A program made the translations under genes and the position numbers. Shown piece by piece: positions 54 through 10,597 of a DNA stretch of 11,170 nucleotides. The number at the start of each line of letters is the position of its first letter. The first letter of the stretch is position 1. Origin of the DNA: Octopus sinensis. Taxonomy: Eukaryota. The notes under the pieces are model-generated. The model worked only from the letters and a program-made list of their open reading frames with translations. It was not told the origin of the DNA and did not search any database. The DNA is taken from the NCBI RefSeq assembly GCF_006345805.1, contig NW_021827051.1:1-11170 (forward strand). Reading direction: 5' to 3'.

Positions 54-363
54 GTGGAGGCGCAATGGCCCAGTGGTTAGGGCAGCGGACTCGCGGTCGG
101 ATGATCGCGGTTTCAATTCCCAGACCGGACGTTGTGTGTGTTTATTGAGCGAAAACACCTAAAAGATCTAAGAGCTTCCGGCAGGGGTGGTGGCGACCCC
201 TGTTGTACTCTTTCGCACCAACTTTCTCTCACTCTTTCTTCCTGTTTCTTGAGTAACGCTGCGATGGACTGGCGTCCCGTCAAGCTGGGGGAACACATAC
301 GCTATAGAAACCGGGCCCCCGAGCCTGGCTAGGCTTGAAAAGGGCGCATAAATAATAAAAAAA
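54..363 (+). mobile_element. tRNA-derived SINE, family A, full length
   Basis: Pol III A box TGGCCCAGTGG at 66-76 and B-box-like GGTTTCAATTCC at 109-120. The head and body are shared with 10237-10597. Contains gcgatggactggcgtcccgtc (Meta/V-domain-like, from recall) and an A-rich tail. Confidence 0.85.
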
Positions 364-2240: not shown

Positions 2241-2447
2241 TTTACTACCCACAAGGGGCTAAACATAGAGAGGACAAACAAGGACAGACATCGACCCCAG
2301 TGCGTAACTGGTACTTAATTTATCGACCCCGAAAGGATGAAAGGCAAAGTCGACCTCGGTGGAATTTGAACCCAGAACGTAACGGCAGACGAAATACGGC
2401 TACGCATTTCGCCCGGTGTGCTAACGTTTCTGCCAGCTCGTCGCCTT
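2241..2447 (-). mobile_element. tRNA-derived SINE, family C
   Basis: The reverse complement reads aaggcgacgagctggcagaaacgttagc...gggttcaaattcc (B box)...gtcgactttgcctttcatcctttcggggtcgataaattaagtaccag. Homologous to 6741-6937. Confidence 0.85.
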
Positions 2448-2814: not shown

Positions 2815-3186
2815 TACTCTTTACTCTTTTACTTGTTTCAGGCATGTGACTATGTCCATGCTGCAGCACCGTTTTTAGTCGAGCAAATCGACTCCAGGAC
2901 TTATTCTTTGTAAGCCTAGTACTTATACCATCGGTCACTTTTGCCGAACTGCTAAGTTACGGGGACTTAAACACACCAGCATCGGTTGTCAAGCGATGTT
3001 GGGGGGACAAACATAGACACACACAAACACACACATATATATATACGACGGGCTTCTTTCAGTTTCCGTCTACCAAATCCACTCACAAGGCTTTGGTCGT
3101 CCCGAGGCTATAGTAGAAGACACTTGCCCAAGGTGTCACACAGTGGGACTGAACCCGGAACCATGTGGTTCATAAGCAAGCTACTT
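2815..3186 (-). mobile_element. Family-B SINE, body and 3' part; its head is displaced to 5594-5626 by an insertion
   Basis: Reverse complement of 3324-3711. Homology stops abruptly at aagcaagctactt (3186) and resumes at 5594 with agctacttaccacgcagtcactcctacgcctat. Confidence 0.92.
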
Positions 3187-3323
3187 TATGCCATAAAATT
3201 TGCCTTTACGGCATTACAAAAAGTAGCTTGCGGGCTGGACAGAAACATTAATGAAAAAAAACGTCCGCCGATTTTTCGCTTCTCTAATACATTATTCTTT
3301 TTTTAAAAAATAAAATGAGGTAT

Positions 3324-3711
3324 AGGCGCAGGAGTGGCTGTGTGGTAAGTAGCTTGCTAACCAACCACATGGTTCCGGGTTCAGTCCCACTGCGTGGCAT
3401 CTTGGGCAAGTGTCTTCTGCTATAGCTCCGGGCCGACCAATGCCTTGTGAGTGGATTTGGTAGACGGAAACTGAAAGAAACCTGTCGTATATATGTATAT
3501 ATATAAGTTTGTGTGTCTGTGTTTGTCCCCCTAGCATTGCTTGACAACCGATGCTGGTGTGTTTACGTCTTCGTCACCTGGCGGTTCGGCAAATGAGACC
3601 GATAGAATAAGTACTGAGCTTACAAAGAATAAGTCCCGGGGTCGATTTGATCGACTAAAGGCGGTGCTCCAGCATGGCCGCAGTCAAATGACTGAAACAA
3701 GTAAAAGAGTA
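3324..3711 (+). mobile_element. Family-B SINE, near intact, nested in the 3' UTR of the ORF1-only element
   Basis: A box TGGCTGTGTGG at 3335-3345, B box GGTTCAGTCCC at 3378-3388, internal microsatellite, tail stem-loop cagtc-aaat-gactg followed by aaacaagtaaaagag. Confidence 0.93.
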
Positions 3712-3729
3712 TTAAACCTCTTACTTTGG

Positions 3730-3735
3730 TTTATT
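3730..3735 (-). promoter_or_regulatory. Candidate polyadenylation signal AATAAA of the ORF1-only element
   Basis: TTTATT on the + strand, about 19 nt downstream of the inferred ORF1 stop codon. Confidence 0.45.
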
Positions 3736-3753
3736 ACAAATTTTCCTTTTGTC

Positions 3754-4990
3754 TTAAAAAAGAACGCACAACAATGAGGCAATAAACCTTTTAGCCGGAC
3801 TGAGACACCAAGTCTCTTCAATCATCCCTATCAATTTTCTTGCCGCCTTAAGGCAATCTCTCAGCCGAAAGTCGGGGCACCAAAAGATATAATTGTAATC
3901 TTCCTTCGAACAGGACTCCACTATTCAAAGGAACTCTCTTTCTTTTACCACTAGCGCCGCCACCTGCGACGGCCAATGCTGCTGATCAGTACAGGCCGAG
4001 ATCATTAGGTCCTGACCATCAAGATAGCTCTCAACAGAGTTGTCAACAACCTCTCCCCTAAGATAGAATACCACATATTCTTTACTTTCACTGGGAGGGG
4101 CCACAGCTCCCTCTGTTGGTGACACGATTCAAACCGAAGAGGCCTCAGAACATTCCGACAGTACACTGCATACCTCCGGCACTGTTCCATTCTTTTTTAT
4201 CTTTGGTGCGGGAGAGGTTGGCTCCTTCGCCATAACGGCAGGAACCTCGCTTCCTCCCGCAACCCCGGGATCCCTCGGAGAGCAACCATTGTTTCTCCCC
4301 TTATTCCTTTTTCTTCCCTTTTTTCGAGCGAGGTCACACTCTCCTCCCATCTCTCCTTCCGGAGGAGGGTAGGGGTTCTTCCACAACTAACTGCTCCAGG
4401 AGCCTGATCTGGTCCTTGGGACAGTTCTTCTTAATGTGGCCGGGCTCCAGGCACTGATGACACTGGGTGAGGGCGTCCTTCAAGAATCACTGGATACCTG
4501 GACCCGGCCATCCTCAAAAAATCTGGGAACACCAGATCATCGGTTGATTGGGTCCACAGGGTCAAAACTGCCTTTGACCCCACCCAATTAGCCGCAGGCA
4601 TCATTTAACATTCAAGACCTTGGCTCCGCTGTCATCCAGACCCCGGCGGATAGTATCATCTATCCACTTGGGCTTTATTCCGGATGGCAGCTCACACATC
4701 CAAGCTCTCGTCAATTTCCTCCCATGAAATGTGGGCAGAAACAGAATTTCCTCCCCTTCCAGAGACTGGCTTGCGTTTTTGCGAGTCTGCCCCTCAGGAG
4801 TAACAAATAGCAGCCACACTGCTGCATATTTGACACCCCTTGTAATAAACTTGATGGTTGGCAGGTATTCTGCCAACTCCTTCTCAATATCTACTTGAAA
4901 GAACACAGTGATGGTGTCGAAGGTTTTGGAATATGTCCTCAACACCACCGTTCTCTCATTAAGGTCCTTTACCCACTGATTGGGGGGCAT
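3754..4990 (-). pseudogene. Disrupted ORF1p/Gag-like nucleic-acid-binding protein (~410 codons) with a CCHC zinc knuckle
   Basis: ATG at 4990 opens MPPNQWVKDLNERTVVLRTYSK...FITRGVKY...LPTFHGRKLTR. After frameshifts it reads VILEGRP, then CHQCLEPGHIKKNC (CX2CX4HX4C, 4462-4421), then the basic patch ARKKGRKRNKG. The C-terminal frame continues through an internal TGA (3925-3927) to TAA at 3754-3756. Confidence 0.8.
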
Positions 4991-5593
4991 AATTTCCCAC
5001 TCCAAGACAGTGTTTTTATTTTTTGCTATGCTTTGCAAAAAAAAAAAAAACGCAGGAAAATGTTCAACAAAAAAGTTCGAAATATTCAAATAAAAGTCCG
5101 AAGAAACACAACGAAAGAACAGAAAAACAGAGTAGAGAAAAGGACGAAGGAAGACATTTCCAGCAGGGCAACAGAATTCCGCCACTTAGATCCGCAAATA
5201 ATCCACAGGTAATCCTCCAGAATATTGCTTCACACAGCTACTCCAGTTCAATGTAGTAGCAAAAAAAAAATTCCTTCACGAATGGGTCGAATTTTTATAA
5301 ACTTTTCAAAGTTTGGTAGCGAGACACGCCAACCAAAACAAAACAATTATCATCGCTAAGTGAGTTACCGAGCGCGACTGCAGCAGACAAACGTTCGAGA
5401 CCCAGTGGGGATTTCTTATATGAAAAAAGGAAAAACAATGTCATACAAGAAATTCCCCACTAAGTCCTTAAAAAAAAAGTGCGTACCTTGCAATCACGCC
5501 TCTTCAACAGTTCTTCGATTCAAAACGGCCATCAACGCACGTCTTGACTGTTCAATCCGATAAGCAACTAACAAACACGCATGCGCGTAAGTG

Positions 5594-5626
5594 AGCTACT
5601 TACCACGCAGTCACTCCTACGCCTAT
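5594..5626 (-). mobile_element. Detached 5' head (A-box region) of the family-B SINE at 2815-3186
   Basis: The reverse complement ataggcgtaggagtgactgcgtggtaagtagct matches ataggcgcaggagtggctgtgtggtaagtagct at 3322-3354. Confidence 0.9.
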
Positions 5627-5646
5627 ATGCGTATATTTATATATTA

Positions 5647-6035
5647 CTAGCAGTATCGCCCGGCGTTGCTCAGGTTTGTAAGGGAAATAACTATAAAGCA
5701 TTTTTAGAGAGTTATAGCCAAAAAATAGCAAAAAAATGAAAAAAAAATGATGGTAAATTTTTTTGAGAGTTAAAAAAGCTGGAGTTGCGTCCCCCCCTAG
5801 ACGGTCTGTGGTTTGGGTTTCTCTGATTCTCCGACCCCATGTCGAATTTATCGATTTTTTTCAGAACTGGGGGAACTTTTCAAAATTTTCGCTGCGTTAG
5901 TTTTGAATTATGACATTGGGCTATGTGTGTGTCAAGTTTCATCAGAATCGGTTGAAAGCCGTGGTCAGAGTGAGGGTACGAGAAAACAGACACACAGAAA
6001 ACGCACAGACAAACTGCCGTTTATATAGAGAGAGA
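5647..6035 (-). mobile_element. Non-autonomous Helitron, 389 bp
   Basis: The minus strand starts A|TCTCTCTCTATATAAACGG and ends cctgagcaacgccggg (imperfect GC-rich hairpin, 5659-5674)...CTAG|T. This gives 5'-TC, 3'-CTAG, an A|T target and no TSD. Confidence 0.8.
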
Positions 6036-6142
6036 TACTGGTGATATACAATACACCATATAATATAGTCGCAGCGTTTAAAAGCTCAATTATTAAATAT
6101 ATCTTAAAATTGCAACATGTATTTCTGGACATTGTGATAAGG

Positions 6143-6740: not shown

Positions 6741-6937
6741 AAGTCGAAGAGCTGGCAGAATCGATAACTCGCCGGAGAAAATGCTTTGCATCATTTCTTC
6801 TGGCACTTTAGGTTCTAAGTTCAAATGATGCCAAGATCAACTTTTTTCTTTCACCCTTTCAGGATCGAGAAGAATATGTACCAGTCGAACGCCCCCCCCC
6901 CAAATTTCAAGCTTTGTGCCTATAGTACAAAGTGTAT
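6741..6937 (+). mobile_element. Family-C SINE, diverged
   Basis: aagtcgaagagctggcagaatcg...aagttcaaat...ctttcaccctttcaggatcga...gtaccag aligns with the reverse complement of 2241-2447. Confidence 0.75.
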
Positions 6938-8594: not shown

Positions 8595-9140
8595 CATGGT
8601 GGCTGACCCCTCGTTATCGAGTATGGCCATTGCACGAAGTTTAATCAATGTTGTTATCGTGCAATGCCTATACAAGACTTTTTTTTAAAGTAAGAAAGAC
8701 TGTGCACTGAATCAATCTCACTCACTAAGCAACAGCAGTCATAATCCGAAAAGAAGAACAAGTCAACATCATCGGTAACCACTGAGCTGTAGGTTTTATG
8801 TCGGAGTTATTCCAGTTACCTGAGTTAGCATCTCCTAGAAGGATGCCCTAACAAAGGCTAGGAGTCCTTCACTCCCAATGATCGAGTATTAACCGCGCGA
8901 TCGAGTATTCAGCCCGATTATTTCTATATCCCCACGCATGATACAGCCTTAAGAGTTCCTCCGACTCTCAAGAGTTCCTCCGCCCTTTGATGGGTTTTGT
9001 TTTTCATCCTGCAGGGTGTCCAATAAACACCTCCTCACCAAGCAAGCTAGGTGGGGTTACCGGTTTAGTCGCCGACGACCCGACCATGCAACAGGTTGTA
9101 CTGGGTTACATGTTACCAGTAGCACTCGAAAGTGACCTAA
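8594..9140 (-). mobile_element. Non-coding RTE-like non-autonomous retroposon, ~550 bp
   Basis: An island of higher GC content with (CATA)n on both sides. On the minus strand it runs into (TATG)n. Its 5' part (ggcgactaaac, ggtgaggagg, aaaaacaaaacc) recalls RTE-clade 5' UTRs from memory. There is a 10-bp hairpin near the 3' end and no A/B boxes or credible ORF. Confidence 0.6.
9060..9117 (-). ncRNA. Candidate degenerate HDV-like ribozyme
   Basis: Elements occur in HDV order on the minus strand: ccagt(P2) aca(P3) acctgt(L3) tgc(P3') atggtc(P1') gg(P1.1') gtcgtcggcga(P4) ctaa(J4/2) accgg(P2'). P1, P2 and P3 contain mismatches. Confidence 0.45.
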
Positions 9141-9998: not shown

Positions 9999-10236
9999 TT
10001 CTTCAGACAGGACGGAAGTGTTGATGCTATTTCTTAGTTCGCGTATTTGTCCCCTTGCATAACCACCTCCTAGCTAACATCTTGGAATATTTTTCCTTTG
10101 CTGTTTTGAGAGACGTCTTCCATGATTGAAGCGAATGGGTCTGACATGCATCCTAAATCTCAAACCATCCAATCTATGCATGAAATCTTACAGTCAATCA
10201 TATTCCTGATGTTATGGTTATTATTACTGCTTTTGT

Positions 10237-10597
10237 GGAGGCGCAATGGCCCAGTGGTTAGGGCAGCGGACTCGCGGTTTCGATTCCCAAACCTGGCGTT
10301 GTGAGTGTTTATTGAGCGAAAACACCTAAAAGCTCCACGAGGCTCCGGCAGGGGATGGTGGTGATCCCTGCTGTACTCTTTCACCACAACTTTCTCTCAC
10401 TCTCACTTCCTGTTTCTGTTGTACCTGTATTTAAAGGGACCGGCCTGTGTCACGCTGAATATCCCCGAGAACTACGTTAAGAGTGCACGTGTCTGTGGAG
10501 TGCTCAGCCACTTACACGTTAATTTCACGAGCAGGCTGTTCCGTTGATTGGGATCAACCGGAACCCTCATCGTCGTAACCGACGGAGTGCTTCCACA
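10237..10597 (+). mobile_element. Family-A-headed SINE with a different 3' tail and a 15-bp TSD
   Basis: Head and body closely match 56-249. Perfect TSD TATTACTGCTTTTGT at 10222-10236 and 10598-10612. Confidence 0.92.

What the first reader, a model, noticed from the sequence alone, without database searches (positions are those of the whole stretch)
3187..5593. ORF1-only (HAL1-like) retroelement bounded by a TSD, with no RT, nested inside a SINE
Seen: the family-B SINE is split, and both halves rejoin at the duplicated AGCTACTT. Removing the nested SINE leaves ~2.0 kb made of a 5' UTR, one ~410-codon zinc-knuckle ORF, AATAAA and a short 3' UTR, with no room for ORF2. Known: HAL1 elements are L1-derived, encode only ORF1 and are mobilised in trans; Tx1-clade ORF1 proteins carry CCHC knuckles. 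Inference: the TSD shows this unit was inserted in one event, so it may be an undescribed ORF1-only family.
Basis: partly seen in the sequence, partly recalled or inferred. Interest (0 to 1): 0.8.

Follow-up and report, generated by a model that had tools for sequence, protein, structure and literature searches.

The report
Half-LINE that targets an octopus SINE
This is a decayed copy of an abundant 2-kb jumping gene in an octopus genome that carries only one predicted RNA-binding protein, sits almost always at the same 15-base spot inside another short repeat, and likely borrows the copying enzymes of a full-size relative found at that same spot.

Summary
Confirmed and extended. The unit (minus strand, 5586-3187; 2,011 bp without the nested SINE) is a decayed copy of an abundant ORF1-only non-LTR retrotransposon family. 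Of 69 related loci, 53 reach the 3' junction with no ORF2 and 16 are 3'-broken; none runs into APE/RT. Copies sit in sense orientation at one site in the head of a tRNA-like SINE, with a 15-bp TSD (AAG[T/A]AGCTTGCTT[A/C]C, not 8 bp), and occur 5'-truncated, in tandem arrays and off-target with their own TSDs. A 5.4-kb autonomous APE/RT element (Tx1-like) uses the same site and shares only the last ~38 nt; its ORF1 is only 24-31% identical. ORF1 shows dN/dS 0.16-0.33 between ORF2-less subfamilies. The cited AATAAA is not conserved; an AATAAA straddles the 3' junction instead. A 3'-tail motif is the reverse complement of the TSD and tracks its variant (T-target 78 TAC/0 TTC; A-target 14/19), though few independent switches support this. 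HAL1-like, new variant; not found in the papers searched; Repbase/Dfam untested.

The parts
5602..5627 (-). Host SINE 5' head (tRNA-like, A-box-like TGACTGCGTGG), upstream of the insertion
   Evidence: 91% identical to positions 1-34 of the intact SINE copy at 3321-3712; tRNA origin inferred from box-like motifs, ARAGORN and Rfam give no tRNA hit
5587..5601 (-). 5' copy of the 15-bp target-site duplication (AAGTAGCTCACTTAC)
   Evidence: 15-bp TSD across 47 related units; 12/15 match to the 3' copy
3187..5586 (-). ORF1-only non-LTR retrotransposon copy (2,400 bp; 2,011 bp without the nested SINE)
   Evidence: closest full-length relatives 81-86% identical
5030..5586 (-). 5' UTR
   Evidence: many relatives begin at the same point, query position 3-11
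3791..5029 (-). Broken ORF1 (~412 codons): predicted RRM-type domain, CCHC knuckle at 4462-4421, basic low-complexity middle, family-specific C-terminal region
   Evidence: intact relatives have 416-456-codon open frames; RRM fold for residues 27-103 of a relative's model
3324..3708 (+). Later SINE copy of the host family, inserted in the 3' UTR in the opposite orientation, 4-bp GTAT duplication (3320-3323, 3709-3712)
   Evidence: absent from full-length relatives L002 and L009
3222..3231 (-). Tail motif GCAAGCTACT, reverse complement of TSD positions 2-11
3198..3214 (-). Inner 3' hairpin within the last ~38 nt shared with the autonomous partner
   Evidence: 87-95% identity of the two closest full-length relatives to the partners' last 38 nt; one pair UA in 21, GC in 10 of 32 rows
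3172..3186 (-). 3' copy of the target-site duplication (AAGTAGCTTGCTTAT)
2822..3171 (-). Rest of the host SINE (B-box-like GGTTCAGTCCC and body)
   Evidence: 86.6% identical to the intact copy over 365 nt

Best explanation
This is a dead copy of an abundant ORF1-only retrotransposon family that sits at one fixed 15-bp site in the head of a SINE and is likely copied in by the endonuclease and reverse transcriptase of a full-length Tx1-like element found at the same site. Shown: family structure, site specificity, 15-bp TSD, 5' truncation, tandem arrays, off-target copies with own TSDs, a co-targeting autonomous element with a shared ~38-nt 3' end, and purifying selection on ORF1 between ORF2-less subfamilies. 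Inferred steps: (a) a donor copy is transcribed from within the upstream TSD and through the downstream TSD, because AATAAA is completed only by element end plus TSD and no poly(A) is inserted; (b) the family's own ORF1p (RRM-type fold plus knuckle) likely coats its own RNA in cis, which is why it stays under selection; (c) the partner's ORF2p recognises the shared 3' hairpin, nicks the SINE bottom strand at the TSD start and primes reverse transcription, helped by annealing of the read-through target bases; (d) the tail motif likely pairs with those read-through TSD bases to close a stem round the recognition hairpin; (e) top-strand cleavage 15 nt away gives the TSD, which regenerates the target and yields head-to-tail arrays of mixed families. 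Insertion between the box-like promoter halves would silence the host SINE copy.
For: Family: 1,901 first-look candidates for the body DNA and 8,174 for the ORF1 N-terminus (not copy numbers). Of 69 distinct loci chosen by body or ORF1 similarity, 45 are closed units of 1,831-2,553 bp, 8 more reach the 3' junction within ~2.3 kb of the ORF1 start, none with APE/RT between; the 16 without a 3' junction, viewed over ~10 kb, do not continue into ORF2 (the one sense RT scrap, L200, belongs to a separate truncated microsatellite-type element). Site: exact occupied junctions 300 (T-type) and 107 (A-type), reversed-pattern controls 0; exact empty sites 31,152 and 5,628. Among the first 60 junction loci, 36 have ORF1 and no ORF2 within 1.5 kb upstream, 8 have RT/APE, 16 neither. 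Independent insertions: 8 of those 60 are 5'-truncated to 37-707 bp with the SINE head joined directly; four off-target truncated copies carry their own 15-16-bp TSDs beginning AAG (L033, L043, L051, L059); both TSD copies agree on the T/A variant in 46 of 48; mixed tandem arrays (L180, L181, L208, L265). Partner: full-length 5.4-5.5-kb elements with ORF1 + APE/RT at the same site (L174, L176, L209-L211, L263, L265); young subfamily 99.1% identical while their host SINEs are 88.5% (10 copies). Selection: dN/dS 0.16-0.33 for pairs between deep subfamilies at dS 0.44-1.15. Homology: ORF1 aligns with partner ORF1 at 24-31%; RRM hits fill both fold searches (best Z 7.3, rmsd 2.4, 69 aligned). Read-through hints: 4 of 4 young full-length partners have CTAAC at the 5' TSD while 3 of 4 have TTAC at the 3' TSD. 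Tail motif: in 184 distinct junctions, T-targets 78 TAC / 0 TTC, A-targets 14 TAC / 19 TTC, 73 unscored; the motif lies 42-48 nt from the end in ORF1-only copies and 76-81 nt in partners. Precedent for annealing of target-like RNA bases in SART1Bm and R1Bm (PMC7265360 passages).
Against: No mobilisation, transcript or cleavage was observed; the partner is inferred from shared site and tail. No parent with a close ORF1 was found, and the genome search scores only top candidates, so a rare autonomous parent is not excluded. For the young ORF1-only subfamily host SINEs (95.2%) are barely more diverged than the elements (96.4%), though hosts are no closer to each other than to 5 empty SINEs of that variant (95.7%). 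dN/dS used copies picked for open frames, simple counting, and CpG decay can inflate dS; close pairs give 0.22-0.60. The tail-target covariation rests on few events: 5 tail changes in a weak ORF1-only tree and 2 in the partner tree, only 1 + 2 independent pairs on starred branches, all concordant but not significant; one whole A-target subfamily keeps TAC. RNAalifold on the MAFFT alignment recovered only the inner hairpin, not the long stem (motif not in register). The microsatellite-targeting relative has a similar AAGCTCTAC tail word that does not complement its target. The fold model is low-confidence overall (mean pLDDT 52.6) and Z under 8 can mean only a common fold.
Confidence: 0.86

Rival explanations
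1. The copies are repeated internal deletions of an autonomous lineage that carried this ORF1 and is now extinct or unsampled; selection acted on that parent and the ORF1-only copies never used their ORF1.
For: No parent was found, so its absence rests on sampling; internally deleted partner copies exist (L255, L258, L261).
Against: 0 of 69 loci continue into ORF2; all sampled autonomous ORF1s are 23-37% identical and fall outside a 100/100 clade on a long branch; subfamilies share a 3' UTR unlike the partner's; a young subfamily (96% identical) has intact ORF1 and still no ORF2.
Confidence: 0.07
2. One old insertion into a SINE was amplified as a composite SINE-plus-insert unit, so the shared site is inherited, not targeted.
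For: Element subfamilies tend to go with one SINE variant; young hosts are 95% alike; one subfamily travels with a fixed downstream ~500-bp piece (L206-L208).
Against: 5'-truncated copies joined exactly at the TSD, off-target copies with own TSDs, unrelated families and the autonomous element at the same site, mixed tandem arrays; partner hosts 88.5% versus elements 99.1%.
Confidence: 0.03
3. The ORF is a processed pseudogene or retrocopy of a cellular zinc-knuckle gene.
For: ESM Atlas lists a ZCCHC3-type RNA-binding cluster at rank 8, score 0.90; one octopus gene model is 73-78% identical.
Against: No poly(A), fixed site, many diverged subfamilies; homologous to ORF1 of RT-bearing elements; the only close protein hits are two octopus gene models; further hits are 20-33%.
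Confidence: 0.01
4. About the tail motif only: its complementarity to the TSD has no function and arises by DNA template switching between the tail and the adjacent TSD, then is inherited by subfamilies (confidence is for this sub-question).
For: The window copy's tail is a near-perfect 57-nt palindrome (-29.5 kcal/mol) and its differences from six relatives all improve pairing, so such correction seems to occur here; few independent switches.
Against: The motif is kept at two different distances in two unrelated 3' UTRs and follows the target variant in both; TTC tails were never seen at T-targets (0 of 19) although exact empty T-sites are 5.5 times more common, which could also reflect timing.
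Confidence: 0.3

Closest known systems
HAL1 (half-L1)
   Same: Non-autonomous L1-group derivative encoding only ORF1p, arisen several times (PMC5753468 passage); here at least three ORF1-only families share the site.
   Different: Described from mammalian L1 with a Transposase_22 ORF1; this one has an RRM-type + CCHC ORF1, no poly(A) tail, is sequence-specific, and is only 24-31% identical to its helper's ORF1.
Target-specific Tx1-clade elements (Tx1L in Tx1D, Tx1-Mar and SINEU-3 in Mariner-N4_AMi, Keno, Kibi, Koshi)
   Same: Insertion into another transposon, ~16-bp TSD, tandem copies sandwiching a TSD, non-autonomous passengers sharing the target (PMC4494074 passages).
   Different: Target here is a SINE head; the passenger keeps a selected ORF1 rather than being non-coding; a tail motif complements the TSD. 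Clade membership inferred, not tested against named RTs.
Dictyostelium TRE5-A.2
   Same: Lacks ORF2, moved in trans by TRE5-A.1, position-specific near tRNA genes (PMC5633606 passage).
   Different: A close deletion variant of its helper inserting ~50 nt upstream of tRNA genes; here an anciently diverged lineage inserting inside a tRNA-like head at a fixed sequence.
Drosophila HeT-A
   Same: Gag/ORF1-only, target-restricted, head-to-tail arrays with RT-bearing partners, ORF1 under selection (PMC5537684 passages).
   Different: Telomeric, host-beneficial, poly(A)-tailed, no TSD; different LINE group (recalled).
SART1Bm / R1Bm target annealing
   Same: Target-like bases in the RNA are thought to anneal to the nicked bottom strand (PMC7265360 passages).
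   Different: There the bases are sense to the target; the motif here is antisense to it, so it could pair with read-through RNA or with the top strand.

Membership tests
HAL1-type (ORF1-only non-autonomous LINE) | Encodes ORF1 and no ORF2 | tested here: met
   0 of 69 loci continue into APE/RT; 45 closed units 1,831-2,553 bp
HAL1-type (ORF1-only non-autonomous LINE) | Multiplied as a family with its own ends and TSDs | tested here: met
HAL1-type (ORF1-only non-autonomous LINE) | ORF1 homologous to ORF1 of an autonomous L1-group element | tested here: met
   24-31% identity over ~205 aa to partner ORF1; partner ORF2 matches L1 ORF2p at E 3e-26
HAL1-type (ORF1-only non-autonomous LINE) | Mobilised in trans by the autonomous element | not testable with these tools
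   Inferred from same site, same TSD and shared last ~38 nt
HAL1 in the strict sense (mammalian L1 derivative) | Mammalian Transposase_22-type ORF1p | tested here: not met
   Pfam finds only zf-CCHC; octopus host; so HAL1-like, not HAL1
Tx1 clade (partner element) | ORF1 with RRM/CCHC plus ORF2 with APE, RT and C-terminal zinc domain | tested here: met
   zf-CCHC E 1.8e-5, RVT_1 E 7e-28, zf-RVT E 7e-9; APE matches L1 endonuclease; such ORF1s are called consistent with Tx1 in PMC5203782
Tx1 clade (partner element) | Target-sequence preference | tested here: met
   9 of 10 young copies printed and 17 of 18 older loci in which the junction was in view end at the SINE site
Tx1 clade (partner element) | RT groups with named Tx1 members in a phylogeny | not testable with these tools
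   No named Tx1 protein among the hits listed
Processed pseudogene | Poly(A) tail and a cellular parent gene | tested here: not met
   No poly(A) at the junctions printed; no conserved parent among protein hits

The most novel reading that the evidence does not exclude
These LINEs use a short antisense guide in their own 3' tail: after the bottom-strand nick the motif pairs with the top strand of the SINE target, so RNA-DNA pairing, not only the endonuclease, picks which SINE variant is hit and sets up the second cut. An ancient ORF1-only lineage rides this system, outnumbers its helper at the site and has tracked the SINE's sequence changes through its guide.
Probability: 0.13. Interest if true: 0.88.

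Novelty: new variant of a known kind. Interest (0 to 1): 0.64.

Why it matters
It is a three-tier parasitism (ORF1-only element on a site-specific LINE on a SINE) in which the passenger is more frequent at the sampled junctions than its helper (36 vs 8 of 60). It extends ORF1-only elements to a sequence-specific Tx1-like system and gives a natural test of why ORF1 is kept in cis: ORF1 stays under purifying selection to dS of about 1 with no ORF2. The target-complementary tail motif with natural compensatory variants, plus a young near-intact helper, makes the open questions of RNA 3'-end recognition and second-strand cleavage in APE-type site-specific LINEs directly testable. Practically, these ORF1s are being called as uncharacterised octopus genes, and the insertions likely inactivate SINE copies.

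Tried and rejected
No RNA holder listed: none of the 20 runs holding the stretch is on record as RNA; contigs of four runs (coded organisms A-D) cover 29-30 of 30 bins of a young copy, which shows presence only. The young autonomous element first found downstream of a copy (L093/L112) was rejected as the partner: it ends in (ATCT)n microsatellite. Rfam gave only low-complexity miRNA matches under threshold and ARAGORN no tRNA, so the SINE head's tRNA origin is not confirmed by tool. Foldseek gave no match at E <= 0.001 (best 7e-3, RRM proteins); residues 118-190 of the model are unreliable and untested. Pfam has no ORF1 family for this protein. No named Tx1 reference turned up. The internal AATAAA was rejected as poly(A) signal. 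Two junction picks (L019, L086) were wrong matches and were dropped from later counts; nine duplicate loci were removed; the L258 row included its stop codon. Six rows with a SINE head inside the tail were left out of the ORF1-only tree and one from the partner tree. Bao and Jurka 2010 and Christensen 2000 are not held. Nine paper searches found no description of a SINE-targeting Tx1 or an ORF1-only Tx1 in cephalopods; Repbase, Dfam and the Zenodo library of PMC13282606 (80 L1-Tx1 families) could not be seen and may hold these sequences. Three look-ups of earlier scan findings returned nothing.

Full report
Observation. The window is AT-rich, repeat-dense animal DNA; the named protein hits are octopus gene models. 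On the minus strand a SINE head (5627-5602) is followed by a 2.4-kb insert and then by the rest of the SINE (3186-2822). A second SINE copy sits in the 3' UTR with a 4-bp duplication; without it the unit is 2,011 bp. The ORF (~412 codons, CCHC knuckle) is broken by frame changes and stops.

It is a family and it has no ORF2. The body gave 1,901 and the ORF1 N-terminus 8,174 first-look candidates in the 2.72-Gb genome (only the best 40 and 150 were scored). Of 69 distinct loci taken from these searches, 45 are closed units of 1,831-2,553 bp, 8 more reach the 3' junction, and 16 are broken at the 3' side; none continues into APE/RT, including the 16 viewed over about 10 kb. A younger subfamily has open frames of 416-456 codons and again ends about 300 bp after ORF1.

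It is site-specific. Nearly all copies lie in the same orientation at the same point of the same SINE. Exact occupied junctions number 300 for the T-type SINE variant and 107 for the A-type, with reversed controls at 0, against 31,152 and 5,628 exact empty sites. Insertions are independent: 8 of the first 60 junction loci are 5'-truncated to 37-707 bp with the SINE head joined directly; four off-target truncated copies have their own 15-16-bp TSDs starting AAG; the two TSD copies agree on the variant in 46 of 48; and arrays string different families head to tail through single TSDs.

The likely helper. Among those 60 loci, 36 have ORF1 without ORF2 upstream, 8 have RT or APE, 16 neither. Following the RT-bearing ones gave full-length 5.4-5.5-kb elements with ORF1 and an APE/RT/zinc ORF2 at the same site. 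One subfamily is young (99.1% identical over 10 copies, hosts 88.5%). An older one ends in a 38-nt tail 92-95% identical to that of the window's closest full-length relatives; no other nucleotide similarity was found apart from one shared 5' end. Helper and passenger ORF1 are homologous but only 24-31% identical, and the passenger ORF1s form a 100/100 clade on a long branch. Calling the helper Tx1 rests on architecture and target preference (PMC5203782, PMC4494074 passages); no named Tx1 protein was available for a tree.

ORF1 has been kept under selection without ORF2. Pairs between deep subfamilies give dN/dS 0.16-0.33 at dS 0.44-1.15; close pairs 0.22-0.60 (copies were chosen for open frames). 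A model of a relative's N-terminal 212 residues is confident only for about residues 28-104, which match RRM domains in both fold searches (best Z 7.3, rmsd 2.4, 69 aligned). At least two further, unrelated ORF1-only families use the site (L022/L181; L247).

The 3' end. There is no poly(A). The 5' TSD copy of young helpers reads CTAAC in 4 of 4 while 3 of 4 3' copies read TTAC, and ORF1-only units show the same skew 6 to 1, suggesting the RNA also starts inside the upstream TSD. Unexpectedly, the tail holds the reverse complement of the TSD start (GCAAGCTACT in the window's subfamily), 42-48 nt from the end in passengers and 76-81 nt in helpers. In the two fixed 30-locus sets T-targets had 20 TAC / 0 TTC tails and A-targets 3 / 15, 22 unscored; over 184 distinct junctions 78 / 0 and 14 / 19, 73 unscored. 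Copies are not independent: trees show 5 and 2 tail changes and only three contrasts on well-supported branches, all concordant, not significant. Single-sequence folds pair motif and TSD in 10 of 11 hand-picked examples, but the alignment fold recovered only the inner hairpin, which has compensatory changes. The window copy's tail has drifted to a near-perfect palindrome, so DNA template switching is a live rival for the motif.

Mechanism. Most likely target-primed reverse transcription in trans: own ORF1p in cis, helper ORF2p recognising the shared hairpin, nick at the TSD start, priming aided by read-through target bases, a stem between tail motif and those bases, second cut 15 nt away. Structure, site, partner and selection are shown; every biochemical step is inferred.

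Known relatives and novelty. HAL1 (ORF1-only, mammals; PMC5753468 passages), transposon-targeting Tx1 and SINEU-3 (PMC4494074 passages), TRE5-A.2 (PMC5633606 passages) and HeT-A (PMC5537684 passages) each share part of the picture. I also read passages of PMC7265360, PMC8869645, PMC4758252 and PMC5203782, and parts 1-2 of 3 plus a supplement term search of PMC13282606, which lists 80 L1-Tx1 families in O. vulgaris without describing targets or ORF1-only forms. Nine searches found no SINE-targeting or ORF1-only Tx1 in cephalopods; Repbase, Dfam and subscription papers were out of reach. Verdict: real, HAL1-like but not HAL1, a new variant of known kinds, with one testable oddity in the tail. 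Interest 0.64.

Noticed in passing
window 2241-2447, minus strand; 43 similar tails in fetched loci: A second SINE family ends in a tail closely resembling the autonomous partner's 3' end and is often followed by its own head sequence, so it is probably moved by a related LINE that targets that SINE; some copies carry AATACCT upstream, complementary to the AGGTATT that follows them.
   Followed up: partly
window 3175-3231: Tail plus TSD form a near-perfect 57-nt palindrome; the differences from six relatives all improve pairing, as in templated quasi-palindrome correction.
   Followed up: partly
L093/L112, L268, L269: Very young autonomous APE/RT family (96-100% protein identity among 120 listed hits, frames up to 1,163 aa) ending in (ATCT)n microsatellite.
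   Followed up: partly
L022/L180/L181 and L247: At least two more ORF1-only families with ORF1 about 30% identical to this one use the same SINE site; L180 holds four units in one array.
   Followed up: partly
L206, L207, L208: One subfamily always has the same ~500-bp truncated unit after its TSD, i.e. a tandem pair that seems to have moved as one.
   Followed up: partly
5' ends of L174, L209, L014, L091, L110, L030: 5' UTRs begin with remnants of older TSDs and share short starts between helper and passengers, suggesting repeated 5' additions from upstream sequence.
   Followed up: no
L255, L258, L261: Internally deleted partner copies joining ORF1 to the RT C-terminal part.
   Followed up: no
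window 5640-6040: A ~400-bp repeat about 90% identical to copies in several loci; its ends recall non-autonomous Helitron-type elements (recalled, untested).
   Followed up: no
window 54-350 and 10235-10590; 994-1395; 1845-2161; 6741-6885; 8645-9140: Further SINE copies of three families and one other dispersed repeat.
   Followed up: no
proteins P0001, P0125, P0126, P0128, P0136: ORF1s of these LINEs are annotated as uncharacterised or mis-named genes in Octopus sinensis, O. vulgaris, O. bimaculoides and Argonauta hians.
   Followed up: partly
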